Shown: positions 2,004 to 44,419, counted from the stretch's first letter. The stretch: 64,000 nucleotides of DNA from Malacoraja senta (GCA_038087875.1 CM075992.1:11038001-11102000); one strand, 5' to 3'. The notes: generated by a model from the sequence alone, not told the origin. Made by a program: numbers and translations.

Positions 2004-2090
2004 TGATTTACAACAGCCATCTGACGTTTCTAGTTCCAGCCACAGACTGTACAGAAGGATACCTGAAAGCACCAAATGGCACGTGTATTG
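2004..2090 (+). CDS. Adhesion GPCR (ADGRE/EGF-TM7-like) exon, N-terminal Cys-containing segment
   Basis: Acceptor ttgtttttgcag|, donor ATTG|gtgagt; 87 nt, phase 1-1; encodes (V)IYNSHLTFLVPATDCTEGYLKAPNGTCI(D) and joins in frame to the DEDEC EGF exon. An alternative in-phase acceptor exists at 2039/2040. Confidence 0.7.
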
Positions 2091-9375: not shown

Positions 9376-11380
9376 TTTGTGCCTGAAACACATTCCACCT
9401 TGTTGCTGCCCTTGCACTTTTTCTTGGCTGCACTTTCTCTATAGCTGTAACATTATATTTAGCACTCTGTTTTCTTTCTCTTTTTGCACCACCTGTTGTA
9501 CCTATGTATGTGATTTGACTGGATAATCCATGATACAATGATTTTCATCGTATATCAGCACATGTGACACAGTTTATTAGTGGCACAGTGGCGCGACTGA
9601 CAGAGCTGCTGATTCACAGCGCCAGGAACCTGAGTTTGATCCTGGCCTCGGGCACTGTCTGCTGGTTGCTAACCATTTTAACTCCCCTTCCCATTTCCAA
9701 ACTGACCTGTCCTGGGCCTCCTCCATTGCCAGAGTGAGGCCATGCGCAAACTGGAGGAACAGCATCTCGTATACGCCTTTCACTTACGATTCATGGCATC
9801 AACATTGAGTTCTCCAATATGAGGTAACTAATCCAAAAACAACCCCTCACCCTTTTTCTCCCCCCCCCCTTTTATTGCCCGTCTCTTCCCTGTGGCCAAG
9901 CCGGATTCTCACCTATTTCTCCATCCCCTTCCATCTATATACCTTTCTATGGATTTATCATTCTACCTTTTCTATCCTCATCTCACATTGTTTGTCTTTT
10001 CATGCCTGGCCTTTGTCCAATCATCTGTCAATCAGCCCCCTCCCCACTTGTATCTACATATCACTTGCCAGACTTTGTCCTGCCCCGAATTCTCTTCCAG
10101 CTTTCCCCCCCCCCCCCCCCCACGACAACCCGAAATGTCACTTGTACCTGTTCTCCAGTGATGCTGCCTGGTCTGCTGAGTTACTCCAGCACTTTGTACC
10201 TTTTTCTATAAGCCAGCATCTGCAGTTCCTGAATGGCGGATGGTATGGATGGTTCAACGGGTATCCATGACGCCAAGATGGGAAAAGCCAAGGCAAGGTC
10301 AAGATGGGGAAAGCCTCAAGTTTCCCCGTCTCCCCACCTTCAATCACCAGGTGTCTCTAAGGGAAGACTGGTCATTCCGGAATCGCATTGCCACAAGAGC
10401 CAGTGTATCAGGATGGAAGCTTGGACAAAGCTAACCGCCCTTACATTCAGATCGCACCAAAGCCTTCGGTTGTGAAAAGTCCAATAAAATACTTATATTT
10501 CTCTTGTGATGAATATTTGAATGAGAGTGAAACATGAGGTAGTCTAGGAGGCACGAGAGATCGCAGAGGCTGGAATTTGGCACAAAAAGGAGATTTGTCA
10601 GTGGGTCAGGCAGCATCTCTGGTGGAAAATGCACAGGTTTTGACCTTCATGTGGGCAGAAAGAATAGAAGGGAGATAGCCACTACAAATAGTGGGGGAGG
10701 GCTTGGGGCAAGTGTGGCAAGTGATAGGTGGATACAGATGAGGAAGGGTTAATTAACAGATGGAGTGAGGTGGGGGAGGGAAGGGTGGAGATAGAGACAG
10801 GGACCGAGAGTTGATGTGGAAACAAGAAAAGACTGCGGATTCTGGAATTTGATAGGAAAGCAAGGTGAAGAGTGAATCAATATGGGAAGAGTAGTGGGGA
10901 ATGAGAACAACGGAGGGGGGCGGGAGTCCACTGGGAGGGATGTGGTGATGGCCAGGTGGGGTAAGTGGGGGGAGGAGTGAGGGGTATTGTGAGAAGCAGG
11001 GGTAGGCAAGACTCCTTCTAATGACATAACACACTTCACAAAAAGCAGAATGAATCTAAGTTTGCTGATGTTGATGCGGGAGTAACAGAGGAGCAGAGAG
11101 GCAGCGGCGTTGTCCGTTTAGGCCTGGGCTGAGGAAAGGTCCCTTTGCTCAGAAGGTTGTGAGTCTTCCTGTTCCTCACTGTGGAGCCACAGTTGTTGAG
11201 TACACACCAGGCTGACATTGTGAATGTTGATTGAATCAACGGGATGGTGGAGATAGAGGGACAGGTCACGATAGGACCAGGAATGATCAGCTGTGGAGTG
11301 TGAGGGCTGGCATGGGCAACAGACCACTCATCCCTTCTTGGTTTTTATTAAAGCATGGATCTTTTTTCTCCTCCATCCAG

Positions 11381-11533
11381 ATGAAGATGAATGTATGGGA
11401 GCTTCTGCACAAACACTGTGTGGCTTCAACATTGATTGTCACAACACAGTGGGAAGCTACTACTGTACCTGTAAGGCAGGATATTTCCACCCGACCAAAC
11501 AACGTAACTTCAAAGACAGCAGAGGCTGCAAAG
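11381..11533 (+). CDS. Adhesion GPCR exon: calcium-binding EGF-like domain, copy 1
   Basis: Acceptor cttttttctcctccatccag|, donor AAG|gtgggt; 153 nt, phase 1-1; [51 protein letters not shown] has six Cys and the D-x-D-E-C...C-x-N-x-x-G-S-Y-x-C cbEGF consensus. Confidence 0.9.
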
Positions 11534-11675
11534 GTGGGTGCTGACACTCATATTTTTGTATTTAATACTTTACTGTTTTGCCTCACAGGGGAGCTTGTGC
11601 TTTGAACTTGGCATGAATGGGAAGAGGCAAGGCCATAGCAACTGGTTTCAGGTACATAGAGGAGTATTGGAAAAT

Positions 11676-14600
11676 CAATAGACAATAGGTGCAGGAGTAG
11701 GCCATTCGGCCCTTCGAGCCAACACGACCATTTAATATGATCATGGCTGATCATTCCCAATCCCCGTTCCTGCCTTCTCCCCATATCCCCTGAGTACGAT
11801 ATCGTTAAGAGCCCTATCTAGCTCTCTATTGAAAGTATCCAGATAACCGGCCTCCACCACCCTCTGAGTCAGAGAATTCCACAGACTCACAACTCTCTGT
11901 GAGAAAAAGTGTTTCCACCTCTCCGTTCTAAATGGCTTACCCCTTATTCTGAAACTGTGGCCCCTGGTTCTGGACTCCCCCAACATCGGGAACATGTTTC
12001 CTGCCTCTAGCGTGTCCAAACCGTTAATAATCTTATGTTTCAATAAGATATCCTCTCATCCTTCTAAACTCCAGAGTGTACAAGCCCAGCATTCTCTCAG
12101 CATATGACAGTCCCGCTATCCCGGGAATTAACATTGTAAACCTGCGCTGCACTCCCTCAATACCAAGAATGTCCTTCCTCAAATTACAGGACCAAAACTG
12201 CACACAATACTCCATGTGTGGTCTCACTAGGACCATAAACAACTGCAGAAGGACCTCTTTGCTCCTATATTCAACTTCTCTTGTTATAAAGGCCAACAAG
12301 CCATTCGCTTTCTTCACTGCCTGCTGTACCTGCATGCTTACTTTCATTGACTGATGAACAAGGACCCTCAGATCCTTTTGTATTTCCCCTTTTCCCAACT
12401 TGACACCATTTAGATAGTAATCTGCCTTCCTGTTTTTGCTACCAAAGTGGATAAGTTCACATTTATCCACATTAAACTGCATCTGCCCACCCACTCAACC
12501 TGTCCACGTCACCCTGCATTCACATAGCGTCCTCCTCACAGTTCCCACTGCCACCCAGCTTTGTGTCATCTGCAAATTTGCTAATGTTACTTTGAATCCC
12601 TTCATCTACATCATTGATGGATATTGTAAATAGCTGCAGTCCCAGCACCGAGCCTTGCGGCACCCCACTAGTCACTGCCTGCCATTCTGAAAGGGACCTG
12701 TTAATCCATACTCTTTGTTTCCTGTCTGCCAACCAGTTTTCTATCCATGTCAGCACTCTACCCCCAAAACCATGTGCCCTAATTTTGCCCACTAATCTCC
12801 TATGTGGGAGCTTATCAAATGCTCGTGTGGCAAATAAAGTTTCTATTCTATTCTATTCTTTCTGAAAGTCCAGATACACTTCATCCACTGGCTCTCCCTT
12901 GTCCATTTTCCTGGCTACATCCTCAAAAAATTCCAGAAGATTAGTTAAGCATGATTTCCCCTTCGTAAATCCATGCTGACTCGGACCGATCCTGTTACTG
13001 TTATCCAAATGTGCCGCTATTTCATCTTTTAAGCCTAGCAATAGACATACTGCAAATAGTTAACAGCTCTCTTCAATCAGGCAATTTCCCAAAAGCCTTG
13101 AAAACTGCAGTTATTAAACCCCTTTTAAAAAAGTGGAGCCTAGATGCCTCTATTATTAACAACTATAGACCAATATCAAACCTACCTTTCATAAGTAAAA
13201 TCCTTGAGAAAGTTGTCCTCCAGCAACTTAATCACTTCCTGGCTTCAACTGGCTGCTACGACAACTTCCAGTCAGGATTTCGACCTCTTCATAGCACTGA
13301 GACCACCCTTATTAAAGTTGTAAATGACATCCGTCTTAACAAAGACTCTGGCAAAGTTTCAATATTAATGCTATTAGACCTCAGTGCTGCATTCGACACT
13401 GTTGATCACTCAATACTTTTGGACAGGTTGGAAAAATGGGTGGGACTTTCAGGCACAGTCTTAAGTTGGTTCAGGTCATATCTACAAGATAGGAACTATT
13501 TTGTTTCCATTGGCGGCTTTGTATCAGAACCAACCAACGTGACGTGTGGAGTCCCGCAAGGTTCGATCTTGGGGCCCTCTTTATTCAACATCTACATGCT
13601 CCCACTAGGGCAAATCATGCGAAATAATAATATTGACCACCACTGCTATGCCGATGACACTCAAATCTATGTAGCACTATCACCAAATGACTATCGCCCC
13701 TTAGATCTCCTGTGCCAGTGCATTAAGCAAGTCAAAGACTGGATGTGCCAAAATTTCCTCCAACTAAATAAGGACAAAACGGAGATAATTGTTTTTGGTG
13801 CTAAAAAAAAAAAGGCTTAAAGAAACCCAACACCTTCACTCTCTGTCCCTGAAAACTTCAAAAAAAGCCAGAAATCTCGGGGTTATTATGGATTCAGATT
13901 TACATTTCAACAGTCGCATCAAATCAGTAACAAAATTGGCCTACTATCACCTCAAAAACGTAGCAAGACTAAGAGGACTCATGTCAGCTCAAGACTTAGA
14001 AAAACTTGTACATGCCTTTATTACTAGTAGGCTAGATTATTGTAACGGTCTCCTTGCAGGTCTTCCGGAAAAAAACTGTCAGGCAGCTACAGCATGTTCA
14101 GAACGCTGTTGCTAGAGTTCTAACAAAGACCAAAAAATTTGAACACTTTACACCAATTCTTAAATCCTTACATTGGCTCCCTGTATGTCAGAGAATTGAT
14201 TTCAAAATCCTGCTGCTTACCTATAAATCAATACATGGTTTAGGGCCAAAGTATATCACTGACATGCTTCCACTATATAAGCCTAAGATCTTCTGAGACC
14301 AATCTGTTAGTGATTCCCAGAGTAAATACAAAACATGGGAAAGCAGGATTTAGTTACTATGCAACAAATAGCTGGAATAAACTTCCTGAAGATTTAAGAC
14401 TTGCCCCTACTTTCACCACTTTTAAAACAAGACTGAAAACTTTTATGTTTACTTTAGCTTTCAGCTAAATCTTAACTACATTGCACTTTTAACTTTTGCA
14501 CTTTTCTATAATGCATTTTTAACTTTGCTTTTATTTTCTTTTAATTCTTCTATTTTATTTCATTTTATTATTTCATTTTATTGTATGACATGTTTTTATG

Positions 14601-16965
14601 TGAAGCACTTTGAGTCTGCCTCGTGTATGAAATGTGCTATATAAATAAAGTTGCAGTTGCAGTTATAATTGACTCCAGCATCTTACCCACCACCGATGTC
14701 AGGCAAACTGGTCCATAATTCCCTGTTTTCTCTCTCCCGCCTTTCTTAAAAAGTGGGATAACATTAGCTACCCTCCAATCCACAGGAACTGATCTTGAGT
14801 GTATAGAACATCGGAAAATTATCACCAATACATCCACGATTTCTAGAGCCACTTCCGTAAGTACCCTGGGATGCAGACCATCAGGCCCTGGGGATTTATC
14901 AGCCTTCAGTCCCATCAGTCTATCCAACACCATTTCCTGCCTAATGTTGATTTCCTTCAGTTCCTCTGTCACCCCATATCCTCTGGCAGGATCAGGAAGA
15001 TTGTTTGTGTCCTCCTTAGTGAAGACAGATCCAAAGTACCAGTTCATCTGCCATTTCCTGTTCCCCATAACTAATTTTTTCCTCTTCACATACCTAAAGA
15101 AGCTTTTACTATCCTGCTTTATAATCTTGGCTAGCTTACCTTCGTACCTCATCTTTTCTCCCCGTATTGTCTTTTGGGTTATCTCCTTTTGTTCTTTAAA
15201 CATTACCCAATCCTCTTGCTTCCCGCTCACCTTTGCTACGTTGTACTTTTTCGCTTTAATTTTTATACTGTCCCTGACTTGTCAGCCATGGTCGTCCCTT
15301 TCTCCCCTTAGAATCTTTCTTCCTCCTAGGAATAAACTGATCCTGCACCTTCTGTATTATTCCTAAAAACACCTGCCATTTTTGTTCCACTGTCATCCCT
15401 GCTAGTGTATCTTTCCAGTCAACATTGGCCAGCTCCTCCCTCATGGCCCCTAGTCCCCTTTATTCAACTGCAACACTGACACCTCCGATCTACTCGTCTC
15501 TCTCTCCAATTGTAGATTAAACCTGACCATGTTATGGTCACTGCCTCCTAATGGCTCATTAACCTCCAGGTCCTTTATCAAATCCGGTTCATTACTTAAC
15601 ACTAAATCAAGAATTGCCTTCTCCCTGGTAGGCTCCAATACAAGCTGTTCAAAGAATCCATCACTAAGGCACTCTTCAAAGTCCCTTTCTTGGGATCCAG
15701 TACCAACCTGATTTTCCCAGTCTACCTGCATGTTGAAATCTCCCATAACAACCACAGCATTACTTTTACTACATGCCAATTTTAACTCCTGATTCAACTT
15801 GCGCCCTATGTCCAGGCTACTGTTTGGGGGCCTGTAGATTAGTCTCATTAGGGTCTTTTTACCCTTACAATTCCTTAGTTCTATCCATACTGACTCCACA
15901 TCTCCTGTTTCAATGTCACCCCTTGCAAGGGACTGAATTTCATTCCTCACCAACAGGGCAACCCCACCCCCTCTGCCCACCTTCCTGTCTTTTCGATACG
16001 AGGTATACCCTTGAATATTCAGTTCCCAGCCCTGGCCCTCTTGCCTCAGTAATTCCCACAACATCATACTTGCCAGTTTCTAACTGAGCTTCAAGCTCGT
16101 CCACTTTATTCCTTATACTTCGCGCATTCATATACAGCACTTTGACCTCCGTATTCACTTTTGCCCTCGCACCGATCGCAATTGGCCCTGACCTTACTCT
16201 GTTTTCCATTCTCAAGCTTTCCTTCCGATTAATTCGAGAAACTTTTGTAATTTTTCCTGTAGCCACTTCCCCTTCAACTCCATCTTTATACTCCCAATTT
16301 GTCAATTTGTCAGGATTGGAGCCACCGGCGTGTCCACCGTTCGGACTAGAAACACCGTCTCCCCGAACAGTTCCCAAGAGGGCGTACCTGTTTTCATTAG
16401 GCACAGTCTTGTGCACTCCACGATTTCCACCCTTTCTCTCCGTCACACACCTTGGTTCTTCCCGTAACCTCGGCGTGACTACCTCACTTTATGTCCTGTC
16501 CAGGAAAGTCACGTTTTCCCGGATGGCCCGGAGGTAACCAAGCTGCTTCTCCAATGCCCCAACACGGTCCTTTAGGATCTGAAGCTGGACGAACTTGCCA
16601 TAGTTGTAGCAGCCAGAGGCTCCATTTGTGTCCTTGGGCTCCCATATTCTGCAAGACTCACACAGTCTCATCTGCCCGGACATGTGTTCACCGCGTACCG
16701 TCCTCTTGAGCTTTATGCCTAGCCTCCTCTCCTCAGCCTCCTCGCCAAAGACTCACTTTTCTCACGAGGCACTTCCCTCACAAGGCCGCTGCCTAAGAGC
16801 CGCCTTGCTTATATTGACTGATAAATTGCCTAATTTACCAATTTACAAACCAAATTCCTCAGTTTTAAACTATTTCCCCCCTCTGACTCACTTCAAACTC
16901 TCCTCCCACTCGGGCTAGAGCCAATCAATGCTTTTTCCTGCTTCTCTTTGCTGCTGTTTCTTCAA
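11676..16965 (-). mobile_element. CR1 LINE of unit 1 (degraded; interrupted by L2; most of the ORF1 esterase deleted)
   Basis: (CTATTGT)n-type 3' tail at the left end; RT fragments ([16 protein letters not shown]) and APE endonuclease fragments (YMNARS, MGDFN, SDH); ORF1 deletion junction near 16305. Confidence 0.92.
13032..14662 (+). mobile_element. 5'-truncated L2 LINE inserted in the unit 1 CR1
   Basis: RT motifs (NYRPISNLPF, QSGFR, LDLSAAFDT, GVPQGS, YADD), L2-type C-terminus (SRLDYCN, LHWLP) and tail aataaagttgcagttgcagtt. The flanking CR1 rejoins seamlessly (ttcatctttta|taattgac). Confidence 0.9.
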
Positions 16966-18335
16966 AATCCACGGGAGTTAATCAGCCCCTTCCCCACTTG
17001 AATCGACATATCACTTGCCAGGCTTTGTCCTGCCCCGACTTCTCCACCAGCTTTCTTCCCCCCCCCTCCCCCCACGACAACCCGAAATGTCACCTGTACT
17101 TGTTCTCCAGTGATGCTGACTGGTCTGCTGAGTTACTCTAGCACTTTGAGTCTTTTTCTATAAGCCAGTATCTGCAGTTCCTGAATGGCGGATGGTACGG
17201 ATGGTTCAACGGGTATCCATGACGCCAAGATGGGGAAAGATGACGCAAGGCAGTACCTCACTCTGCCTCAAGTTTCCCTGTCTCCCCACCTTCAATCACC
17301 AGGTGTCTCTAACCCTATCAAGGGAAGACTGCTCATTCCAGAATCGCATTGCCTCAAGAGCCAGTGTATCAGCGATGGAAGCTTGGACAAAGCTAACCGC
17401 CCTTACTATCAGAGCACACCAAAGCCTTCGGTTGCGAAAAGACTAAGAAAATTGTTCTATTCCTCGTGATGAATATTTGAATGAGAGTGAATCATGAGGT
17501 GGTCTAGGAGGCACGAGAGATCGCAGAAGATGGGATCTGGCACAACAAAGGAGAGTTGTCAGTGGGTCAGGCAGCATCTCTGGTGGAAAATGGACAGGTT
17601 CTGACCTTCATGCGGGCAGAAATAATAGAAGGGAGATAGCCACTGCATAGAGTGGGGGGAGGGCTTGGGGCAAGTGTGGAAAGTGATAGGTGGATACAGA
17701 TGAGGAAGTGTTAATTAGCAGATGTAGTGAGGTGGGGCAGGGAAGAGTGGAGATAGAGACAGGGATCTGGAGGTGATGTGGAAACAAGAAAAGGCTGCGG
17801 TTTCTGGAATTTGATAGGAAAGCAAGGTGAAGTGTGAATCAATATGGGAAGAGTAATGGGGGATGGAAACAACGGAGTTGGGAGGGGGTCCACTGGGAGG
17901 GATGTGGTGATAGCCAGGTGGGGGGGAGGAGTAAGGGATATTGTGAGAAGCAAGGGTAGGCAAGACTCCTTGTAATGACATAACACACTTCCAAAAAGCA
18001 GAAAGAATCTAAGTTTGCTGATGTAGATGCGGGAGTAACAGAGGAGCAGAGAGGCAGCGGCTTTGTCCGTTTAGGCCTGGGCTGAGCAAAGTTCCCTTTG
18101 CTCAGAGGGTTGTGAGTCTTCCTGTTCCTCACTGTGGAGCCACAGTTGTTGAGGACCCACCAGGCTGACATTGTGAATGTTGATTGAATCAAGGGATGGT
18201 GGAGATGGAGGGACAGATCACGATAGGACCATGAATGATCAGCTGTGGAGTGTGAGGCCTGGCATGGGCAACAGACCACTCATCCCTTCTTGGTTTGTAT
18301 TAAAGCATGGATCTTTTTTCTCCTCCTCCATCCAG

Positions 18336-18488
18336 ATGAGGATGAATGTAATATAACTACTGCACAAGCACTGTGTGGCTCCAACACTGATTGTCACAAC
18401 ACAGTGGGAAACTACTACTGTATCTGTAAGGCAGGATATTTCCACCCGAGCAAACAACGTAACTTCACAGACAACAGAGGCTGCGAAG
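18336..18488 (+). CDS. Adhesion GPCR exon: calcium-binding EGF-like domain, copy 2
   Basis: Same splice signals as copy 1, 153 nt, phase 1-1; [51 protein letters not shown]. Confidence 0.9.
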
Positions 18489-18630
18489 GTGGGTGCTGAC
18501 ACTCATATTTTAGTATTTAATACTTTACTGTTTTGTCTCACTGGGGAGCTTGTGCTTTGAACTTGGCATGAAAGGGTAGAGGCAAGGCCATAGCAGCTGG
18601 CTTCAGGTACATAGAAGAGTATTGGAAAAT

Positions 18631-21600
18631 CAATAGACGATAGGTGCAGGAGTAGGCCATTCGGCCCTTCGAGCCAACTCAACCAATTAATGTGATCATG
18701 GCTGATGGATAATGATCTTCCCCAATCCCCGTTCCTGCCTTCTCCCCATATCCCCTGACTACGATATCGCTAAGAGCCCTATCTAGCTCTCTATTGAAAG
18801 TATCCAGAGAACTGGCCTCCATCACCCTCTGAGGCAGAGAATTCCACAGACTCACAACTCTCTGTGAGAAAAAGTTTCCACGTCTCCGTTCTAAATGGCT
18901 TACCCCTTATTCTGAAACTGTGGCCCCTGGTTCTGGACTCCCCCAACATCAGGATCATGTTTCCTGCCTCCAGCGTGTCCAAACCCTTAATAATCATATG
19001 TTACAATAAGATATCCTCTCATCCTTCTAAACTCCAGAGTATACAAGCCCAGCTGGTCCATTCTCTCAGCATATGATAGTCCCACCATCCCTGGAATTAA
19101 CCTTGTAAACCTGTGCTGCACTCCCTCAATAGCAAGAATGTCCTTCCTCAAATTACAGGACCAAATCTGCACACAATATTCCAGATTTGGTCTCACTAGG
19201 GCCCTAAACAACTGCAGAAGGACCTCTTTGCTCCTATATTCAACTTCTCTTGTTATAAAGGCCAACATGCCATTCGCTTTATTCACTGCCTGCTGTACCT
19301 GCATGCTTTCTTTCATTCACTGATGAACAAGGACCCTCAGATCCTTTTGTACCTCCCCTGTTCCCAACTTGACACCATTTAGATAGTAATCTGCCTTCCT
19401 GTTTTTGCTACCAAAGTGGATAACTTGTCATTTATCCACATTAAACTGCATCTGCCATGCATCTGCCCACCCACTCAACCTGTCCAAGTCACCCTGCATT
19501 CTCATAGCATCCTCCTCACAGTTCACACTGCCACCCAGCTTTGTGTCATCTGCAAATTTGCTCATGTTACTTTGAATCCCTTCAACTAAATCATTGATGT
19601 ATATTGTAAATAGCTGCAGTCCCAGAACCGAGCCTTGCGGCACCCCACTAGTCACTGCCTGCCATTCTGAAAGGGACCTGTTAATCCATACTCTTTGTTT
19701 CCTGTCTGCCAACCAATTTTCTATCCATGTCAGTCAGCACTCTACCCCGAATATCATGTGCCCAAATTTAGCCCACTAATCTCCTATGTGGGACCTTATC
19801 AAATGCTTTCTGAAAGTCCAGGTACACTTCATCCACTGGCTCTCCCTTGTCCATTTTCCTAGTTACATCCGCAAAAAATTCCAGAAGATTAGTTGAGCAT
19901 GATTTCCCCTTCGTAAATCCATGCTGACTCAGACTGATCCTGTTACTGCTATCCAAATGTGCCGCTATTTCATCTTGTATAATTGACTCCAGCATCTTAC
20001 CCACCACCGATGTCAGGCTAACTGGTCTATAATTCCCTGTTTTCTCTCTCCGGCCTTTCTTAAAAAGTGGGATAACATTAGCTACCCTCCAATCCACAGG
20101 AACTGATCCTGAGTGTATAGAACATTGGAAAATTATCACCAATGCATCCACGATTTCTAGACCCACTTCCTTAAGTACCCTGGGATGCAGACCATCAGGC
20201 CCTGCGGATTTATCAGCCTTCAGTCCCATCAATCTATCCAACACCATTTCCTGCCTAATGTGATTTCCTTCAGTTCCTCTGTCACCCCAAATTCTCTGGC
20301 CACTACTATATCAGGAAGATTATTTGTGTCCTCCTTAGTGAAGACGGATCCAAAGTACCTGTTCAACTCATCTGCCATTTCCTTGTTCCCTGTAATAAAT
20401 TCACCTTTTTCGGTCTTCAATGGTCCAACTTTGGTCTTAACTAACTTTTACCTCTTCACATACCTAAAGAAGCTTTTACTATCCTGCTTTATATTCTTGG
20501 CTAGCTTACCTTCTTACCTCATCTTTTCTCCCCGCAATGTCTATTTGGTTATCTCGTGTTCTTTAAACATTACCCAATCCTCATGCTTCACGCTCACCTT
20601 TGCTACGTTGTACTTTTTCGCTTTAATTTTTATACTGTCCCTGACGTCCCTTGTTAACCATGGTTGTCCCTTTCTCCCCTTAGAATATTTCTTCCTCCCA
20701 GGAATAAATTGATCCTGCACCTTCTGTAATATTCCTAAAAACACCGGCCATCTTTGTTCCACTGTCATCCCTGCTAGTGTATCTTTCCAGTCAACTTTGG
20801 CCAGCTCCTCCCTCATGGCCCCATAGCCCCCTTTATTCAACTGCAACACTGATACCTCCGATCTACTCTTCTCCCTCTCCAATTGTAGATTAAACCTGAC
20901 CATGTTATGGTCACTGCCTCCTAATGGCTCATTAACCTCGAGGTCCTTTATCAAATCCGGTTCATTACTTAACACTAAATTGCCTTCTCCCTGGTAGGCT
21001 CCAATACAAGCTGTTCAAAGAATCCATCACTAATGCACTCTACAAAGCCCCTTCCTTGGGGTCCAGTACGAACCTGATTTTCCCAGTCTACCTGCATGTT
21101 GAAATCTCCCATAACCACAGCATTACTTTTACTACATGCCAATTTTAACTCCTGATTCAACTTGCGCCCTATGTCCAGGCTACTGTTTGAGGGCCTGTAG
21201 ATTAGTCCCATTAGGGTATTTTTACCCTTACAATTCCTTAGTTCTATCCATACTGACTCCACATCTCCTGCTTCAATGTCACCCCTTGCAAGGGACTGAA
21301 TTTCATTCCTCACCAACAGGGCAACCCCACCCCCTCTGCCCACCTTTCTGTCTTTTCGATAGGAGGTATACCCTTGAATATTCAGTTCCCAGCCCTGGCC
21401 CTCTTGCAGCCATGTCTCAGTAATTCCCACAACATCATACTTGCCAATTTCTAACTGAGCTTCAAGCTCGTCCACTTTATTCCTTATACTTCGTGCATTC
21501 ATATACAGCACTTTGACCTCCGTATTCACTTCCCCCCTCGCACTTGGCCCTGACCTTACTCTGTTGTCCATTCTCAAGCTTTACTTCCCATTAATTCGAG

Positions 21601-22925: not shown

Positions 22926-24294
22926 CAAAATCTACAGGGGTCAATCAGCTCCTTCCCCACTTGTATCTACATATCACTTGCCAGGCTTTGTCCTGCCCCG
23001 ACTTCTCTTCCAGCTTTCTCCCCCCCGCCCGCCTCCAACGACAACCAGAAATGTCAACTGTACCTGTGCTCCAGTGATGCTGCCTGGTCTGCTAAGTTAC
23101 TCCAGCACTTTGAGTCTTTTTCTATAAGCCAGTATATGCAGTTCCTGAATGGCGGATGGTACGGATGGTTCAACGGGTATCCATGACACCAAGATGGGGA
23201 AAGCCGAGTCAAGGTCAGGGTACCTCACTCTGCCTCAAGTTTCCCAGTCTCCCCACCTTCAATCACCAGGTGTCTCTAACCCTATCAAGGCAAGACTGCT
23301 CATTCCAGAATCGCATTGCCTCAAGAGCCAGTGTATCAGCGATGGAAGCTTGGACAAAGCTAATCGCCCTTACTTTCAGATCGCACCAAAGCCTTTGGTT
23401 GTGAAATGTCCAAGAAAATTGTTCTATTTCTCTAGTAATGAATATTTGAATGAGAGTGAAACATGACATAGTCTAGGAGGCACGAGAGATCACAGATGCT
23501 GGGATCTGGCACAAAAAAGTAGAGTGGTCACTGGGTCAGGCAGCATCTCTGGTGGAAAATGGACAGGTTCTAATCTTCATGTGGGCAGAAAGAATAGAAG
23601 GGAGATAGCCACTGCAAAGAGTGGGGGATGGCTTGGGGCAAGTGTGGCAAGTGATAGGTGGATACAGATGAGGAAGGGTTAATTAGCAGATGGAGTGAGG
23701 TGGGGCAGGGAAGGGTGGAGATAGAGACAGGGACAGGGAGGTGATGTGGAAACAAGAAAAGGCTGCGGATTCTGGAATTTGATAGGAAAGCAAGGTGAAG
23801 AGTGAATCAATATGGGAAGAGTAGTGGGGGATGGGAACAATGGAGGGGGGAGGGGGTCCACTGGGAGGGATGTGTGGTGATGGCCAGGTGGGGGGAGGAG
23901 TGAGGGGTATTGTGAGAAGCAGGGGTAGGCAAGACTCCTTCTAATGACATACACTTCACAAAAAACAGAAAGAATCTAAGTTTGCTGATGTAGATGTGGG
24001 CGTAACAGAGGAGCAGAGAGGCAGCTCGTTTAGGCCTGGGCTGAGGAAAGGTCCCTGTGCTCAGAATGTTGCGAGTCTTCCTGTTCCTCACTGTGGAGCC
24101 ACAGTTGTTGAGGACACACCAGGCTGACATTGTGAATGTTGATTGAATCAAGGGATGGTGGAGATGGAGGGACAGGTCACGATAGGACCAGGAATGATCA
24201 GCTGTGGAGTGTGAGGGCTGGCATGGGCAACAGACCACTCATCCCTTCTTGGTTTTTATTAAAGCTTGGATCTTTTTTCTCCTCCTCCATCCAG

Positions 24295-24447
24295 ATCAAG
24301 ATGAATGTAATGGAACCTCTGCACAAACACTGTGTGGCAACAACACTGATTGTCACAACACAGTGGGAAGCTACTACTGTACCTGTAAAGCAGGATATTT
24401 CCACCCGAGCAAACAACGTAACTTCACAGACAACAGAGACTGCAAAG
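24295..24447 (+). CDS. Adhesion GPCR exon: calcium-binding EGF-like domain, copy 3
   Basis: Same splice signals, 153 nt, phase 1-1; [51 protein letters not shown]. Confidence 0.9.
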
Positions 24448-24589
24448 GTGGGTGGTGACATTCATATTTTTGTGTTTAATACTTTACTGTTTTGCCTCAC
24501 TGGGGAGCTTGTGCTTTGTACTTGGCATGAATGGGAAGAGGCAAGGCCATAGCAGCTTGTTTCAGGTACATAGAGGAGTATTGGAAAAT

Positions 24590-27500
24590 CAATAGACAAC
24601 AGACAATAGACAATAGGTGCAGGAGTAGGCAATTCGGCCCTTCGAGCCAACACCACCATTTAATGTGATCATGGCTGATCATTCCCAATCCCCGTTCCTG
24701 CCTTCTCCCCATATCCCCCGACTACGATATCGTTAAGAGCCCTATCTAGCTCTCTATTGAATGTATCCAGAAAACCGGCCTCCACCACCCTCTGAGGCAG
24801 AGAATTCCACAGACTCACAACTCTCTGTGAGAAAAAGTGTTTCCACATCTCCATTCAAATGGCTTACCCTTATTCTGAAACTGTGGCCCCTGGTTCTGGA
24901 CTCCCCCAACATCGGGAACATGTTTCCTGCATCTAGCGTGTCCAAACCCTTAATAATCTTATATGTTTCAATAAGATATCCTCTCATTCTTCTAAACTCC
25001 AGAGTATACAAGCGCAGCCGGTCCATTCTCTCAGCATATGACAGTCCCGCCATCCCGTGAATTAACCTTGTAAACCTATGCTGCACTCCCTCAATAGCAA
25101 GAATGTCCTTCCTCAAATTAGAGGTCCAAAACTGCACACAATACTCCAAGTGTGATCTCACTAGGGCACTAAACAACTGCAGAAGGACATCTTTGCACCT
25201 ATATTCAACTTCTCTTGTTATAAAGGCCAACATGCCATTCGCTTTCTTCATTGACTGCTGTACCTGCATGCTTACTTTCATTGACAGATGAACAAGGACC
25301 CTCAGATCCTTTTGTAATTCCCCTTTTCCCAACTTGACACCATTTAGATAGTAATCTGCCTTCCTGTTTTTGCTACCAAAGTGGATAACCTCACATTTAT
25401 CCACATTAAACTGCATCTGCCATGCATCTGCCCACCCACTCAACCTGTCCAAGTCACCCTGCATTCTCATAGCATCCTCCTCACAGTTCACACTGCCACC
25501 CAGCTATGTGTCATCTGCAAATTTGCTAAAGTTACTTTGAATCCCTTCATCTACATCATTGATGTATATTGTAAATAGCTGCAGTCCCAGCACCAAGCCT
25601 TGCGGCACCCCACTAGTCACTGCCTGCCATTCTGAAAGGGACCTGTTAATCCATACTCTTTGTTTCCTGTCTGCCAACCAGTTTTCTATCAATGTCAGCA
25701 CTCTACACCGAATACCATGTGCCCTAATTTTGCCCACTAATCTCCTATGTGGGACCTTATCATATGCTTTCTGAAAGTCCAGATACACTTCATCCACTGG
25801 CTCTCCCTTGTGCATTTTCCTAGTTACATTCTCAAAAAATTCCAGAAGATTAGTTAAGCATGATTTCCCCTTCGTAAATCCATGCTGACTCGGACCGATC
25901 CTATTACTGCGATCCAAATGTGCCGCTATTTCATCTTTTATAATTGACTCCAGCATCTTACCCACCACCGATGTCAGGCTAACTGGTCTATAATTCCCTG
26001 TTTTCTCTCTCCCGCCTTTCTTAAAAAGTGGGATAACATTAGCTACCCTCCAATCCACAGGAACTGATCCCGAGTCTATAGAACATCGGAAAATTATCAC
26101 CAATGCATCCACGATTTCTAGAGCCACTTCCTTAAGTAATAATAATAATAATACATTTTATTTATGGGCGTCTTTCAAAAGTCTCAAGGACACCTTACAA
26201 AGTTTAACAAATAGTGTAGAATCATGTAAGCGGAATGAAATAAATAGTAAAGACATCACCAGTACACAAATTAAAGATAGAATTAAATCCAAAAACAAAA
26301 ATCAAAAACACAATATGGAAGAGAGAGCAGCGGCTGCTAAAGCGCGCCAGCGTCCACTTTCCCTTCCGACCGCCATCTTGGACATAGACTAACATAGACA
26401 CTACACATTACACACAAAATCATCCCTCCCACAATGATCACCACTGTGGGGGAAGGCACAATGTCCAGTCCCCAACCCCAGTTCACCCAAAGTCAGGCCT
26501 ATTGAGGCCTCCACAGTTGCCTCTACGGAGGCCCGATGTTCCTGGCCGTTCTCACCGGGTGCAGTTGTCCCGGCGTCGGGAGAGTCCTCACAGCGGCTGG
26601 GATGGCTGGAACGGCCGATTTTCAGTCCGTGGCACCTGAAGCCGACAAGGCCGCGCTGATTTGGAGCTCAAAGGCTCACGATGTTGGAGTCCGCGCCGCC
26701 GCCCGCGGCTGGTCGCTCCGCAGTCCCACAGCCCGGAGGTGTGGAGCTCGGCGGTCGCAGCTCACCGGAGCTCCAGCGCGACGATCCAGCGCGGCGACCC
26801 AGGCAAGGCATTGCCCGCTCCGCTCCGTGATAGCACTCCAGCGCTGTGCCGCCACCGGAGCTGAAGGTGCTGGGCAGTCCCCGCCAGGAAAACGCCGCTC
26901 CACGCCCGCTGGTAGGCCGCAAGGACGGGTCGACGGGGCAGCCCGGAGAAAAAGCTGCCTCACCGACCAGGTAGGGACCTAGAAATAGTTTTCCCCTTAC
27001 CCCCCCACATTAAAAGCCAAAATTCCCCAACAGACAAAGAAATAAAAAAACTAAAAACGAAGAAAAAAAGTGAATTTAACACACGGCTGCTGGTTAGCAG
27101 CCATTCCCCAAGATGGCTCCTCCTCCTCTGCATCAAAGTACCCTGGGATGCAGACCATCAGGCCCTGGGGATTTATCAGCCTTCAGTCCCATCAGTATAT
27201 TCAACACCATTTCCTGCCTAATGTGGATTTCCTTCAGTTCCTCTGTCACCCCAGATCCTCTGGCCACTAGCATATCAGGAAGATTGTTTGTGTCCCCCTT
27301 AGTGAAGACAGATCCAAAGTACCAGTTCATCTGCCATTTCCTTGTTCCCCATAATAAATTCACCTTTTTCGATCTTCAAGGGTCCAACTTTGGTTTTAAC
27401 TAATTTTTTCCTCTTCACATACCTCAAGAAGCTTTTACTATCCTGCTTTATATTCATGGCTAGCTTACCTTCGTACCTCATCTTTTCTCCCCGTATTGTC

Positions 27501-29885
27501 TTTTTGTTTATCTTCTGTTGTTCTTTAAACATTACCCAATCCTCTTGCTTCCCGCTCACCTTTGCTACGTTGTACTTTTTCGCTTTAATTTTTATACTGT
27601 CCCTTACGTCCCTTGTCAGCCATGGTCGTCCCTTTCTCCCCTTAGAATCTTTCTTCCTCCTAGGAATGAACTGATCCTGCACCTTCTGTATTATTCCTAA
27701 AAACACCTGCCATTTTTGTTCCACTGTCATCCCTGCTAGTGTATCTTTCCAGTCAACTTTGGCCAGCTCCTCCCTCATGGCCCCATAGCCCCCTTTATTC
27801 AACTGCAACACTGATACCTCCAATCTACTCTTCTCCCTCTCCAATTGTAGATTAAACCTGACCATGTTATGGTCACTGCCTCCTAATGGCTCATTAACCT
27901 CGAGGTCCTTTATCAAATCCGGTTCATTACTTAACACTAAATCCAGAATTGCCTTCTCCCTGGTAGGCTCCAATACAAGCTGTTCAAAGAATCCATCACT
28001 AAGGGACTCTACAAATTCCCTTCCTTGGTGTCCAGTACTAACCTGATTTTCCCAGTCTACCTGCATGTTGAAATCTCCCATAACAACCACAGCATTATTT
28101 TATTACAAGCCAATTTTAACTCCTGATTCAACTTGCGCCCCATGTCCAGGCTCCTGTTTGGGGGCCTGTAGATTAGTCCCATTAGGGTATTTTTACCCTT
28201 ACAGTTCCTTAGTTCTATCCATACTGACTCAACATCTCCTGCTTCAATGTCACCCCTTGCAAGGGACTGAATTTCATTCCTCACCAACAGGGCAACCCCA
28301 CCCCCTCTGCCCACCTTTCTGTCTTTTTGATAGGAGGTATACCCTTGAATATTCAGTTCCCAGCCCTGGCCCTCTTGCAGCCATGTCTCAGTAATTCCCA
28401 CAACATCATACTTGCCAGTTTCTAACTGAGCTTCAAGCTCGTCCACTTTATTCCTTATACTTCGTGCATTCATATACAGCACTTTGACCTCCGTATTCAC
28501 TTCCCCCCTCGCAATTGGCCCTGACCTTACTCTGTTGTCCATTCTCAAGCTTTCCTTCCCATTAATTCGAGAATCTTTTCTAATTTTTCCTGTCGCCACT
28601 TCCCCTTCAACTTCATCTTTATACTCCCAATTTGTCAATCCCTCCTCCCCACTATTTAGTTTAAACCCGCACGTGCAGCCCTAGCAAACCTGCCTGCCAG
28701 AATGTCGGTCCCCCTCCAGTTAAGGTGTAACCAGTCCCTTTTGTACAGGTCACCCCTACCCCAGAAGAGATCCCAGTGGTCTATAAATCTAAATCCTTGC
28801 TCCCTGCTCCAGCCCCTCAGCCACTCATTCAGATCCCCTATCTCCCTGTTCCTGTCCTCACTAGCACGAGGTACTGGAAGCAATCCAGAGATAACCACCC
28901 TAGAAGTCCGGCATTTCAGACTTCTTCCCAAATCTCTGAAGTCATGTTGGAGAACCTCCTTCCACTTCTTCCCAATGTCGTTTGTGCCTACGTGCACAAC
29001 TACTGCCGGCTGTTCACCTTCTCTCTCTCTCTCGAGGATGTTCATAATTTGGCTCGTGACATCCTGAACCCTGGCACCAGGGAGGCAACAGACCATCCTC
29101 GCATCTCGTCTGTCGCCACAGAATCTCCTGTCCATTCCTCGGACAATGGAGTCACCCACCACTAGGGCTCTGCCCGACGTCGGTCTCGCCGATCGAGTCC
29201 CATCTTCAGGATTGGAGCCACCGACGTGTCCACCGCTCGGACTGGAAACATCGTCTCCCTGGACAGTTCCCAAGAGGGATTACCTGTTATCATTAGGCAC
29301 AACCACCCGAGTCTTCTGCACTCCATGATTTCCACACTTTCTCTCCGTCACACACCTTGGTTCTTCCCGTAACCTCGGCGTGACTACCTCACTGTATGTC
29401 CTGTCCAGGAAACTCTCGTTTTCCCGGCTGGCCCTGAGGTCATCCATCTGCTTCTCCAGTGCCCCAACACGGTCCTTTAGGAGCTGAAGCTGGAAGAACT
29501 TGCCACAGTTGTAGCAGCCAGAGGCTCCATCTGTGTCCCTGGGCTCCCATATTCTGCAAGACTCACACTGTCTCATCTGCCCCGACATGTGTTCACCGCG
29601 TTCCATCCTCTCCAGCTTTATGCGTAGCCTCCTCTCCTCAGCCTCCTCGCCAAAGACCCTCGAGCCAAAGATGCACACTTTTCTCACAAGGCACGTCCCT
29701 CACAAGGCCGCTCCCTAAGAGCCGCCTAGCTTATATTGACTGATAAATTGCCTAATTTACCAATTTACAAACCAAATTCCTCAGTTTTAAACAGTTTTCC
29801 TCCTCTGACTCACTTCTAACTCTCCTCCCACTCGGGCCAGAGCCAATCAGTGCTTTTTCCTGCTTCTCTTTGCTGCTGTTCCTTC
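24590..29885 (-). mobile_element. Near full-length CR1 LINE of unit 3 (interrupted at 26139-27135; ORF1 has a stop)
   Basis: Colinear with the unit 2 CR1; RT ORFs 24754-26127, APE 27299-28638, ORF1 28656-29687 split in two. Confidence 0.95.
26139..27135 (-). mobile_element. GC-rich non-coding retroposon with (ATT)n, L2-like tail, inserted in the unit 3 CR1
   Basis: Absent from the other units; TSD AAGTA (26134-26138, 27136-27140); microsatellite tail and AATAAA on the minus strand. Confidence 0.85.
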
Positions 29886-31072
29886 AAAATCCACAGGGGT
29901 CAATCAGCCCCTTCCCCACTTGTATCTACATATCACTTGCCAGGCTTTGTCCTGCCCCGACTTCTCTTCCAGCTTTCTCTCCCCCCCCACTCGCCTCCAA
30001 CGACAACCAGAAATGTCAACTGTACCTGTTCTCCAGTGATGCTGCCTGGTCTGCTAAGTTACTCTAGCACTTTGAGTCTTTTTCTATAAGCCAGTATCTG
30101 CAGTTCCTGAATGGCGGATGGTACGGATGGTTCAACGGGTATCCATGACGCCAAGATGGGGAAAGCTGAGGCAAGGTCAGGGTACCTCACTCTGCCTCAA
30201 GTTTCCCAGTCTCCCCACCTTCAATCACCAGGTGTCTCTACCCTATCAAGGGAAGACTGCTCATTCCGGAATCGCATTGCCTCAAGAGCCAGTGTATCAG
30301 CGATGGAAGCTTGGACAGAGCTAATCGCCCTTACTTTCAGATCGCACCAAAGCCTTTGGTTGTGAAATGTCCAAGAAAATTGTTCTATTTCTCTTGTAAT
30401 GAATATTCGAATGAGAGTGAAACATGAGGTAGTCTAGGAGGCACGAGAGATCACAGATGCTGGGATCTGGCACAAAAAGTTAGAGTGGTCACTGGGTCAG
30501 GCAGCATCTCTGGTGGAAAATGGACAGGTTCTGACCTTCATGTGGGCAGAAAGAATAGAAGGGAGATAACCACTGCAAAGAGTGGGGGAGGGATTGGGGC
30601 AAGTGTGGCAAGTTATAGGTGGATACAGATGAGGAAGGGTTAATTAGCAGATGGAGTGAGGTGGGGCAGGGAAGGGTGGAGATAGAGACAGGGACCGGGA
30701 GGTGATGTGGAAACAAGAAAAGGCTGCGGATTCTGGAATTTGATAGGAAAGCAAGGTGAAGAGTGAATCAATATGGGAAGAGTAGTGGGGGATGGGAACA
30801 ACGGAGGGGGGAGGGGGTCCACTGGGAGGGATGTGTGGTGATGGCCAGGTGGGGTAGGTGGGGGGAGGAGTGAGGGGTATTGTGAGAAGCAGCGGTAGGC
30901 AAGACTCCTTGTAATGAAATAACACACTTCACATAAAGCAGAAAGAATCTAAGTTTGCTGATGTAGATGTGGGAGTAACAGAGGAGCAGAGAGGCAGCGG
31001 CTTTGTCCGTTTAGGCCTGGGCTGAGGAAAGGTCCCTTTGCTGAGAAGGCTGTGAGTCTTCCTGTTCCTCCT

Positions 31073-31149
31073 GCTGCTACTGTACATGTAAGGCAGGATA
31101 TTTCCACCTGAGCAAACAACGTAACTTCACAGACAACAGAACTGCAAAG
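31073..31149 (+). pseudogene. Dead fourth EGF exon copy (3' half only)
   Basis: Alignment to copies 1-3 shows ~275 bp deleted (upstream intron, splice acceptor and first half of the exon) plus a 1-nt deletion near the end (aacagaactgcaaag vs aacagagactgcaaag). Confidence 0.85.
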
Positions 31150-31291
31150 GTGGGCGGTGACACTCATATTTTTGTATTTAATACTTTACTGTTTTGCCTC
31201 AATGGGGAGCTTGTGCTTTGAACTTGGCATGAATGGGAAGAGGCAAGGCCATAGCAGCTGGTTTCAGTTACATAGAGGAGTATTGGAAAAT

Positions 31292-33110
31292 CAATAGACA
31301 ACAGACAATAGACAATAGGTGCAGGAGTAGGCCATTCGGCCCTTCGAGCCAACACCACCATTTAATGTGATCATGGCTGATCATCCCCAATCAAATTGAT
31401 CCACATTAAACTGCATCTGCCATGCATCTGCCCACACACTGAACCTGTCCAAGTCACCCTGCATTCTCATAGCATCCTCCTCACAGTTCCCACTGCCACC
31501 CAGCTTTGTGTCATCTGCAAATTTGCTAATGTTACTTTGAATCCCTTCATCTAAATCATTGATGTATATTGTAAATAGCTGCGGACCCAGCATCGAGCCT
31601 TGCGGCACCCCACTAGTCACTGCCTGCCATTCTGGAAGGGACCCGTTAATCCCTACTCTTTGTTTCCTGTCTGCCAACCAATTTTCTATCTATGTCAGAA
31701 CTTTACGCCCAATACCATGTGCCCTAATTTTGCCCACTACTCTCCTATGTCAGACCTTATCAAATGTTTTCTGAAAGTCCAGGTACACTTCATCCACTGG
31801 CTCTCCCTTGTCCATTTTCCTAGATACATCCTAAAAAAATGGCAGAAAATTAGTCAAGCATGATTTCCCCTTCGTAAATCCATGCTGACTCGGACCGATC
31901 CTGTTACTGCTATCAAAATGTGCCGCTATTTCATCTTTTATAATTGACTCCAGCATCTTACCCACCACCGATTTCAGGCTAACTGGTCTATAATTCCCTG
32001 TTTTCTCTCTCCCGCCTTTCTTAAAAAGTGGGATAACATTAGCTATCCTCTTATCCATAGGAACTGATCCTGAATCTATAAAACTGTGGAAAATTATCAC
32101 CAATGCATCCACGATTTCTAGAGCCACTTTCTTAAGTACCCTGGGATGCAGACCAGCAGGCCCCTGGGGATTTATCAGCCTTCAGTCCCATCAGCCTATC
32201 CAACACCATTTCCTGCCTAATGTGGATTTCCTTCAGTTCCTCTGTCACCCCAGATCCTCTGGCCACTAGTATATCAGGAAAATGTTTGTGTCCTCCTTAG
32301 TGAATACGGATCCAAAGTGCCTGTTCAACTCATCTGCCCTTTCCTTGTTCCCCATAATAAATTCACCTTTTTCAGTCTTCAAGGGTCCAACTTTGGTCTT
32401 AACTAATTTCTTCCTCTTTACATACCTAAAGAAGCTTTTACTATCCTTCTATATATTCTTGGCTAGCTTACCTTCGTACCTCATCTTTTCTCCCCGTATT
32501 GCCTTTTCAGATCTCTTCTGTTGCTCTTTAGACATTACCCAATCCTCTTGCTTCCCGGTCATCTATGCTACGTTGCTACTCTTTTATTTTTATACTGACC
32601 CTGACGTCCCTGGTCATCCACATTCGCCGCATACTGCCCTTGGAATGAACTGATCCTGCACCGTCTGTATTATTCCCAGAAATACCTGCCATTGTTGTTC
32701 CAATGCCATCCCTTCTAGGGTATTTTTCCAGTCAATTTGGCTAGCTTCTCCCTCATGGCTCCATAGCCCCCTTTATTCAACTGTAAAACCGACTCCTCCG
32801 ATTTACCCTTCTCCCTCTCCAATTGTAGATTAAATTTGACCATATTATGGTCACTATCTCCTAATGGCTCCTTAACCTCATGGCTTACTTATCCTCAAGT
32901 TCCGTTTCATTACATAACACTAAATCCAGAATTGCCTTCTCCCTGGTAGGCTCCAATACAAGCTGCTCGAAGAATCCATCACGGAGGCACTCCACAAACT
33001 CCCTTTCTTGGGGTCCAGATTTTCCCAGTCTACCTATATGTTGAAATCTCCCATAACAACTGTAGCATTACCTTTACTACATGCCAATTTTAACTCCTGA
33101 TTCAACTTGT
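31292..33110 (-). mobile_element. CR1 LINE of unit 4 (internal deletion near 31392, 5' part missing)
   Basis: Same tail and insertion point as in the other units; jumps from the 3' UTR to the RT; ends within the APE region. Confidence 0.9.
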
Positions 33111-38818: not shown

Positions 38819-38856
38819 ATTTGATAAATCTTCGCCCGAACAGTTCATCTTTTGCG
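38819..38856 (+). CDS. Adhesion GPCR small stalk exon
   Basis: Acceptor tttctgttctcttcacag|, donor GCG|gtaagc; 38 nt, phase 1-0; (D)LINLRPNSSSFA. It bridges the phase-1 EGF exon to the phase-0 exon at 39999. Confidence 0.65.
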
Positions 38857-39998: not shown

Positions 39999-40176
39999 GA
40001 TATTAATTCATTTGCTGAGGTTTCCACCACGAGTTTGTTAAAGCTTTGCAACACAAGTTCAACAGATTTCTTCAAGTTGGTTTCCAATTTCCTGGAAGTC
40101 ATGGAAAATTATACAATTGCAGCTGCCCGGAATTTACATCACCAAGAAAAGGGAGAGTTCTCTTCCAATAACTTGG
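39999..40176 (+). CDS. Adhesion GPCR exon, probable GAIN subdomain A (helical)
   Basis: Acceptor ctgtctctattccaacag|, donor TTGG|gtaatg; 178 nt, phase 0-1; DINSFAEVSTTSLLKLCNTSSTDFFKLVSNFLEVMENYTIAAARNLHHQEKGEFSSNNL. Confidence 0.8.
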
Positions 40177-44299: not shown

Positions 44300-44419
44300 A
44301 AATCCGCATGCAAGCAATCCGGAACAGCACAATCCCAAACGATAACAGATCAAAGTTATCCACTGTCAATAACAGCCTGAACATTGGCTGGAAGAGCGTG
44401 GCAGGGAAAGAGAATTTTG
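44300..44419 (+). CDS. Adhesion GPCR exon, GAIN domain
   Basis: Acceptor ttctccattttcaaag|, donor TTTG|gtaagt; 120 nt, phase 1-1; (E)IRMQAIRNSTIPNDNRSKLSTVNNSLNIGWKSVAGKENF. Confidence 0.8.

What the first reader, a model, noticed from the sequence alone, without database searches (positions are those of the whole stretch)
10027..33110. EGF-domain number expanded by tandem amplification of an exon + full-length CR1 cassette
Seen: four head-to-tail units, each ~1.65 kb of exon-containing flank followed by the same antisense CR1 at the same insertion point, so the LINE inserted first and was amplified with the exon. The symmetric phase 1-1 exon keeps the frame at any copy number. Inference: the 4.3 kb CR1 supplies most of the homology for unequal crossover, making this a copy-number 'accordion' that could change receptor ectodomain length between alleles. 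This is the best candidate in the window for an undescribed system.
Basis: partly seen in the sequence, partly recalled or inferred. Interest (0 to 1): 0.78.

Follow-up and report, generated by a model that had tools for sequence, protein, structure and literature searches.

The report
LINE-seeded EGF exon array in skate
A skate immune-type receptor gene carries one EGF exon in three intact copies and one broken copy, each followed by a CR1 retrotransposon; the array likely began by unequal crossover between two separate CR1 insertions, a local variant of a known way of duplicating DNA rather than a new system.

Summary
The array is real: four head-to-tail units at 10027-33109, each a 1.65 kb flank plus an antisense CR1, in an ADGRE/EGF-TM7-type gene of a skate. 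Three corrections. (1) Only three exons are intact; unit 4 has lost the splice acceptor and half its exon. (2) The CR1 is not one element throughout. Unit 4's copy is 5'-truncated, and its distal ~600 bp differ from units 1-3 by 12-14% with a synonymous excess (pN/pS 0.37), as expected of another active CR1 lineage. The unit junction sits at the CR1 5' end, inside a repeat that is unbroken left of unit 1. Best reading: two same-orientation CR1 insertions 1.65 kb apart recombined unequally and founded the array; later crossovers, at least some inside the CR1, expanded it. (3) Units are 2-9% diverged and mosaic: a slow, old array. Copy-number polymorphism within the species is untested. EGF number does differ among relatives (9 in an Amblyraja model), and Mobula rays amplified the same exon separately. 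LINE-mediated duplication and variable ADGRE EGF number are both published. Modest interest.

The parts
2004..2090 (+). Upstream coding exon of the ADGRE-type gene (87 nt, phase 1-1)
   Evidence: tblastn with P0001/P0002; splice sites
9650..10230 (+). Old repeat fragment, Penelope-like by recalled motif; start approximate. Unbroken left of unit 1; units 2-4 begin in its middle (10027)
   Evidence: another copy at 38134-38394 aligns across 10027 (9981-10226)
10027..16976 (+). Unit 1
11381..11533 (+). EGF_CA exon 1, intact
   Evidence: PF07645, 32.1 bits, cut-off 27
11676..16976 (-). CR1 of unit 1; ~580 bp of ORF1 missing at 16306
13029..14662 (+). Private nested LINE fragment (L2-like by recalled motifs), TSD TTA
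   Evidence: (RVT_1)
16977..22939 (+). Unit 2
18336..18488 (+). EGF_CA exon 2, intact
18631..22939 (-). Full-length CR1, 4309 bp: esterase ORF1 (open frame 21685-22740), endonuclease, RT (frameshifted), 3' microsatellite
22940..29898 (+). Unit 3
24295..24447 (+). EGF_CA exon 3, intact
24590..29898 (-). CR1 of unit 3, full length but interrupted
26134..27135 (-). Private 1002-bp insertion with (TAA)n end and TSD AAGTA
29899..33109 (+). Unit 4, decayed
31073..31149 (+). Remnant of EGF exon 4: acceptor and first 75 nt deleted, further 1-nt deletion
31292..33109 (-). 5'-truncated CR1 of unit 4; ~695 bp deletion at 31390; part beyond ~32500 from a different CR1 lineage (inferred)
38819..38856 (+). 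Exon after the EGF array (38 nt)
39999..40176 (+). Stalk/GAIN-region exon
   Evidence: no Pfam hit
44300..44419 (+). GAIN-region exon
56967..57151 (+). GAIN exon
   Evidence: PF16489, E 7e-4, below cut-off
62249..62407 (+). GPS exon
   Evidence: PF01825, 57.1 bits

Best explanation
This is a tandem array of one calcium-binding EGF exon plus an antisense CR1 in a skate ADGRE-type receptor gene, likely founded by unequal crossover between two separate same-orientation CR1 insertions and likely expanded by further crossovers between units. Inferred steps: (1) a 5'-truncated CR1 (CR1b, surviving in unit 4) inserted 142 bp after the exon; (2) a full-length CR1 of another lineage (CR1a) inserted 1.65 kb upstream, at 10027, on one chromosome; (3) CR1b of a chromosome without CR1a paired with CR1a and crossed over near the RT/linker border (unit 4 position ~32500), giving upstream-flank-hybrid full-length CR1-flank-CR1b; (4) later crossovers or conversions, at least two inside the CR1, gave four mosaic units; (5) unit 4's exon was lost by deletion. 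Shown: the anatomy, the divergences and three intact in-frame exons. Predicted: a receptor with three near-copies of the first EGF domain; splicing is not shown.
For: Junction at the CR1 5' end: CR1-family contigs of other skates lie on 16788-16942 and depth is high at 16894, within 34 bp of the junction at 16976 (tables 4 and 8). The host repeat runs unbroken across 10027 left of U1 and no CR1 lies there. U4-private substitutions: 74 of 574 sites beyond 32502 against 63 of 2498 before (log-likelihood gain 45). Distal U4 changes: 33 synonymous on 135 sites, 51 non-synonymous on 564 (pN/pS 0.37; binomial p 1.8e-5); private changes of U1-U3 over ORF2 are 37:122, Fisher p 0.011. U4's RT part looks neutral (12 on 200, 38 on 715). 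At distal codons where U4 differs from the U1-U3 majority, U4 matches a stingray CR1 protein at 16 of 42 (P0028) and 16 of 44 (P0029); control, private changes of U1-U3: 6 of 36 and 7 of 37. Oldest blocks are all 7-9% apart (first 600 bp of flank, U1 5' CR1, U4 RT); the youngest are 1.9-3.6%. Precedent: hybrid L1 at the mouse Abp duplication (PMC3669608, passages) and LINE-LINE NAHR (PMC4344489, abstract).
Against: Neither parental allele was seen, and no CR1 stands on the array's left flank, unlike the textbook product with LINEs at both ends; the model needs CR1a to have been heterozygous or on one chromatid. The two outgroup proteins were found with a U4 query, which biases the match count, and the control rate is not zero. 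U4 distal against U4 proximal syn:non is not significant (p 0.089). The chimeric nature of the U1-U3 CR1s is inferred from U4 alone; no family consensus was available. U3's RT part is close to neither U2 (4.9%) nor U4 (6.4%), so no single-crossover history fits. The exact CR1 5' terminus is known only to within ~34 bp.
Confidence: 0.65

Rival explanations
1. One reading: one full-length CR1 inserted, a non-homologous tandem duplication copied flank plus CR1, and unit 4's CR1 was later converted by, or recombined with, another CR1 copy that removed its 5' part.
For: Same 3' junction in 4 of 4 units; U4 has other deletions; CR1 copies are very abundant in skates.
Against: Needs the duplication break to fall within ~34 bp of the CR1 5' end by chance, plus a separate event to explain U4's synonymous excess.
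Confidence: 0.17
2. One-step retrotransposition-linked duplication: a CR1 cDNA was primed inside the resident CR1b (or on a read-through RNA at its own locus), copied through to the 5' end and joined at 10027, so that flank, exon and the CR1 3' half form a giant target-site duplication of ~3.8 kb.
For: Gives the same product without a polymorphic second insertion: junction at the CR1 5' end, no CR1 left of U1, lineage switch at ~32500. Multi-kb L1 target-site duplications in cultured cells are recalled, not from a call.
Against: No direct trace separates it from crossover. No poly(A) or CR1 tail at the units' left ends, so ordinary 3' transduction is unlikely. Search one search listed no paper that I read on such an event.
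Confidence: 0.12
3. The CR1 is a passenger in later changes: the exon is amplified because the gene tolerates or favours EGF repeats, and any part of the unit serves for crossover. (Compatible with either origin.)
For: EGF exons are duplicated in several shark proteins, and EGF1 six times in Mobula birostris; skate repeats form a clade apart from Mobula repeats. ADGRE1 doubled its EGFs in ruminants (PMC6174849, passages).
Against: Homogenised tracts and block switches lie mostly in the CR1, though with 72% of the unit being CR1 that is also the null expectation.
Confidence: 0.4
4. Assembly artefact.
For: None found.
Against: Units differ by 2-14%, carry private insertions with target-site duplications, and no gap lies in the array; relatives' proteins show the same repeat.
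Confidence: 0.01

Closest known systems
L1-mediated NAHR duplication of mouse Abp gene blocks (PMC3669608, passages seen); primate globin duplication by L1 as cited there
   Same: Tandem duplication whose junction is a hybrid LINE with a switch in diagnostic sites.
   Different: There LINEs stand on both outer flanks and whole genes are copied; here one exon inside a gene is copied, the LINE is 72% of the unit and the left flank has none.
Human LINE-LINE NAHR and TE-mediated rearrangements (PMC4344489, abstract and outline; PMC9675761, passages)
   Same: Directly oriented LINEs of about 4 kb act as recombination substrates for deletions and duplications.
   Different: Mammalian L1 or Alu pairs, >95% identity criterion; here CR1, and only the U2/U3 5' halves (1.9-2.4% apart) still meet that level.
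EGF-number variation in mammalian ADGRE1 (PMC6174849, passages)
   Same: Single-exon, in-frame EGF_CA domains; number differs between species by internal duplication (7 versus about 14).
   Different: There a block of seven different EGFs doubled; here one exon is repeated and the other ancestral EGFs were not found in the window. No transposon role appeared in the passages seen.
Canonical vertebrate CR1 with esterase ORF1 (PMC13343379, passages)
   Same: Esterase ORF1, endonuclease, RT, no poly(A) tail.
   Different: None seen; the element itself is ordinary.
Intragenic exon arrays with copy-number alleles, such as LPA kringle IV-2 and complement receptor 1 long homologous repeats (recalled, no call)
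   Same: Multi-kb exon-plus-intron units changing protein length by unequal crossover.
   Different: Those units are near-identical and polymorphism is proven; here units are 2-9% apart and polymorphism is untested.

Membership tests
Calcium-binding EGF exon | Pfam EGF_CA above cut-off, six cysteines, D-x-D-E-C start | tested here: met
   32.1, 32.3 and 34.8 bits against cut-off 27 for 3 of 3 intact exons; translations
Calcium-binding EGF exon | Symmetric phase 1-1 exon with AG/GT | tested here: met
   not met by the unit 4 remnant
ADGRE / EGF-TM7 adhesion GPCR | N-terminal EGF_CA domains followed by GAIN and GPS in one reading frame | tested here: met
   exon phases are consistent; GPS 57.1 bits; GAIN weak, E 7e-4 on one exon
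ADGRE / EGF-TM7 adhesion GPCR | Seven-transmembrane region | not testable with these tools
   expected beyond the window's end and no genome is held; related proteins carry 7tm_2
ADGRE / EGF-TM7 adhesion GPCR | Spliced mRNA containing the three EGF exons | tested here: inconclusive
   no RNA holder listed; no exon joint among the rows shown
CR1 LINE | Esterase ORF1, endonuclease and RT in ORF2 | tested here: met
   Lipase_GDSL_2, Exo_endo_phos and RVT_1 hits
CR1 LINE | 3' microsatellite instead of poly(A) | tested here: met
   (CAATAGA)-type repeat on the + strand at the 3' junction
CR1 LINE | RT placed in the canonical CR1 clade by a tree | not tested
   no tree of RT sequences was built
Classical LINE-LINE NAHR duplication | Internal junction formed by a hybrid LINE | tested here: inconclusive
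   lineage switch between U4 and U1-U3 at ~32500; parents not seen
Classical LINE-LINE NAHR duplication | Parental LINEs on both outer flanks of the array | tested here: not met
   no CR1 left of 10027; so it works like one but is not filed as the classical product
Copy-number-polymorphic exon array ('accordion') | Different unit numbers among individuals of one species | not testable with these tools
   no run held half of the query's words, best share 0.34; only contigs were laid
Copy-number-polymorphic exon array ('accordion') | Long near-identical tracts between units | tested here: inconclusive
   longest identical tract 225 bp (U2/U3); the other 5 of 6 pairs at most 109 bp

The most novel reading that the evidence does not exclude
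CR1 retrotransposition itself duplicated the exon in one step (cDNA primed in a resident CR1 and joined 3.8 kb upstream), leaving a self-renewing exon-plus-LINE cassette that is shared across skates and still changes the number of EGF1 domains, and their glycosylation, between alleles of an immune-type receptor; devil rays reached the same EGF1 array independently.
Probability: 0.1. Interest if true: 0.62.

Novelty: new variant of a known kind. Interest (0 to 1): 0.32.

Why it matters
It is a readable natural record of how a LINE can start an exon array in a cartilaginous fish: both likely parent lineages survive in the array, and the model makes sharp predictions for related skates. The parallel amplification of the same first EGF domain in skates and Mobula makes ectodomain length and glycosylation in this receptor a testable target of selection. 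It does not define a new class of system: LINE-mediated duplication and variable EGF number in ADGRE receptors are both published.

Tried and rejected
No genome is held for the window. Sequencing runs: no RNA holder listed; best share 0.34. Four of the 23 listed runs were laid on 1900-16990. Transposon copies swamped the tables (7887 joints and 477493 pieces not shown), so whether relatives carry the CR1 at either junction, and any exon-exon joint, stays open. Summed contig depth at the exon (65, 87, 2469) against single-copy contigs (about 11, 9, 360) in three runs hints at several copies, but the tool says this is no copy number and I do not rely on it. Positive selection on the exons is not shown: 19 non-synonymous against 3 synonymous private changes, p 0.35; exon against nearby intron variability 21 of 153 against 70 of 851 sites, p 0.045, marginal. 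A tblastn hit at 35450-35536 to a Rhinoraja model is not an EGF exon. Ordinary 3' transduction was rejected: no tail at the units' left ends. A giant duplication ending in a CR1-free last flank was rejected: nothing after 33109 matches the flank. PMC13172734 (spider peptide domain duplication, passages) is not a precedent: intra-exonic, without a transposon role. Earlier scan findings: none shown. Ten paper searches listed no paper on this locus or on shark or skate ADGRE arrays; the library lacks most subscription journals. No supplements were opened. No structure was predicted, since it would not bear on the question.

Full report
Observation. Self-BLAST and alignment show four head-to-tail units: U1 10027-16976, U2 16977-22939, U3 22940-29898, U4 29899-33109. 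The cleanest, U2, is a 1654-bp flank plus a 4309-bp antisense element with an esterase ORF1, endonuclease and RT and a 3' microsatellite. That matches the esterase-type canonical CR1 described in PMC13343379 (passages seen). The 3' junction is identical in 4 of 4 units, so that insertion predates amplification. U1-U3 each hold a 153-nt phase 1-1 exon with AG/GT ends that passes the EGF_CA cut-off. U4's exon has lost its acceptor and first 75 bases and has a 1-nt deletion. U1 carries a private 1634-bp LINE fragment and lacks ~580 bp of ORF1, U3 carries a private 1002-bp insertion, and U4's CR1 lacks ~695 bp and stops at 33109. No gap lies in the array. The array is real, but it is three exons plus a ruin, and only one CR1 is both complete and uninterrupted.

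The gene. The exon's best relatives, 84% identical, are predicted proteins of Amblyraja radiata (XP_032906753.1) and Leucoraja erinacea (XP_055486856.1), so the window is very likely a skate; the species was not determined. tblastn finds the other exons at 2004-2090, 38819-38856, 39999-40176, 44300-44419, 56967-57151 and 62249-62407, with consistent phases and canonical splice sites; the last is a GPS motif. This is an ADGRE/EGF-TM7-type receptor whose 7TM exons are expected beyond the window. Splicing is predicted, not shown.

Age and mosaic. Block distances: first 600 bp of flank 7.4-9.3% for 5 of 6 pairs but 3.0% for U3/U4; ORF1 N-half and 5'UTR about 7% for U1 against U2 or U3 but 1.9% for U2/U3; RT 4.2-5.3% among U1-U3. 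U3 is thus closest to U4 on its left and to U2 on its right, and its RT part is close to neither. That needs at least two exchanges inside the CR1. The longest identical tract is 225 bp (U2/U3, in CR1); the other five pairs have at most 109 bp. Listed contigs of other skates differ from the window's non-array DNA by about 3-5% (for example 33 letters over ~800, 44 over 887, table 8), less than the 7-9% between the oldest blocks. By inference the founding event is older than those species splits, and relatives should carry the cassette. I could not see this, because the joint table was cut.

Two CR1s, not one. U4-private substitutions jump at ~32500 from 63 of 2498 to 74 of 574 sites. Beyond that point they are enriched for synonymous changes (33 on 135 sites, 51 on 564; pN/pS 0.37; binomial p 1.8e-5; Fisher p 0.011 against the private changes of U1-U3), while U4's RT part and all private changes in U1-U3 look neutral. 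Against this, distal against proximal U4 gives p 0.089. At distal codons where U4 differs from the U1-U3 majority, it matches stingray CR1 proteins at 16 of 42 and 16 of 44; the control gives 6 of 36 and 7 of 37, and these proteins were found with a U4 query. Purifying selection acts on active LINE lineages, not on dead copies (established knowledge), so U4's distal part likely comes from a different active lineage. Second, the unit junction joins the CR1 5' end (family sequence reaches at least 16942; junction 16976) to the middle of an older repeat that is unbroken left of U1. Third, U4's CR1 ends 5'-truncated against unrelated DNA, as most LINE insertions do.

Mechanism. One history explains all three features: a truncated CR1 after the exon, a full-length CR1 of another lineage 1.65 kb upstream on one chromosome, and an unequal crossover near the RT/linker border between that chromosome and one lacking the upstream copy. 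The product is upstream-flank-hybrid CR1-flank-truncated CR1. Further exchanges gave four units, and the last exon decayed. All these steps are inferred (0.65). A one-step retrotransposition-linked duplication gives the same product and cannot be excluded (0.12).

Relatives. Among 26 predicted proteins examined, the Amblyraja model has 9 copies of this EGF, some identical in sequence, and the partial Leucoraja model has 2. Three Rhinoraja paralogs have 1, 1 (another EGF type) and 0. Pristis and Hypanus have one first-type EGF plus one other. Mobula birostris has 6 first-type copies (Pfam 6), M. hypostoma 3 by pattern and 2 more by eye. Several sharks duplicated other EGFs. In a tree of 38 domains over 52 columns, the 15 skate rows form one clade (100/98) that excludes all Mobula repeats, which group with single-copy Hypanus and Pristis EGF1 (97/93) (few columns, no clade test run). 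Amplification of EGF1 therefore likely happened twice. These are automatic gene models, the skate genes may be paralogs, and their introns were not available, so a CR1 in those units is unknown.

Known versus new. Hybrid-LINE duplication junctions are published for mouse Abp, and that paper cites L1-mediated globin duplication (PMC3669608, passages). LINE-LINE NAHR is widespread in humans (PMC4344489, abstract; PMC9675761, passages). ADGRE1 EGF number differs between mammals by internal duplication (PMC6174849, passages). Ten searches listed nothing on this locus. What differs here is the geometry: one exon inside a gene, a unit that is mostly LINE, and no LINE on the left flank. It works like LINE-LINE NAHR but lacks one feature of the classical product.

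Verdict. A real, old, slowly changing exon array with a likely two-insertion origin. The allele-level accordion is possible (U2/U3 are still ~98% identical over about 1.7 kb of CR1) but untested. New variant of a known kind; interest 0.32.

Noticed in passing
11381-11533, 18336-18488, 24295-24447: The three EGF copies carry 0, 2 and 3 N-glycosylation sequons; differences cluster in the N-terminal loop. Selection not shown.
   Followed up: partly
P0022, P0026 (Mobula) versus P0001, P0002 and the window: The same first EGF domain is amplified separately in devil rays and in skates, while Hypanus and Pristis keep one copy.
   Followed up: partly
33110-38818: No exon for the second ancestral EGF type (present in Pristis, Hypanus and one Rhinoraja paralog) was found between the array and the stalk exon; it seems lost in this gene and in the Amblyraja model.
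   Followed up: partly
26134-27135: 1002-bp GC-rich insertion with a (TAA)n end and 5-bp TSD and no identified coding frame; stretches of similar look at about 43500-43930, 55900-56700 and 61450-62200. Possibly a non-autonomous retroelement family.
   Followed up: no
45501-48752 (-): DIRS-like element: RT and a tyrosine-recombinase N-terminal domain (weak Pfam hit); class name recalled.
   Followed up: no
59276-60887: Tc1-type transposon with 217-bp inverted ends, 96.8% identical, and a transposase frame at 59647-60387.
   Followed up: no
10022-10032: The site where units 2-4 begin reads GTCAAT, close to the CR1 3' repeat unit GACAAT: weak support for a CR1 target site with 3' microhomology.
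   Followed up: partly
1421-1620: Assembly gap of 200 N upstream of the 2004-2090 exon; the first coding exon was not found in the window.
   Followed up: no
P0017, P0019, P0021: Rhinoraja has at least three paralogs of this receptor, so skates hold a small gene cluster and comparisons of EGF number may mix paralogs.
   Followed up: no
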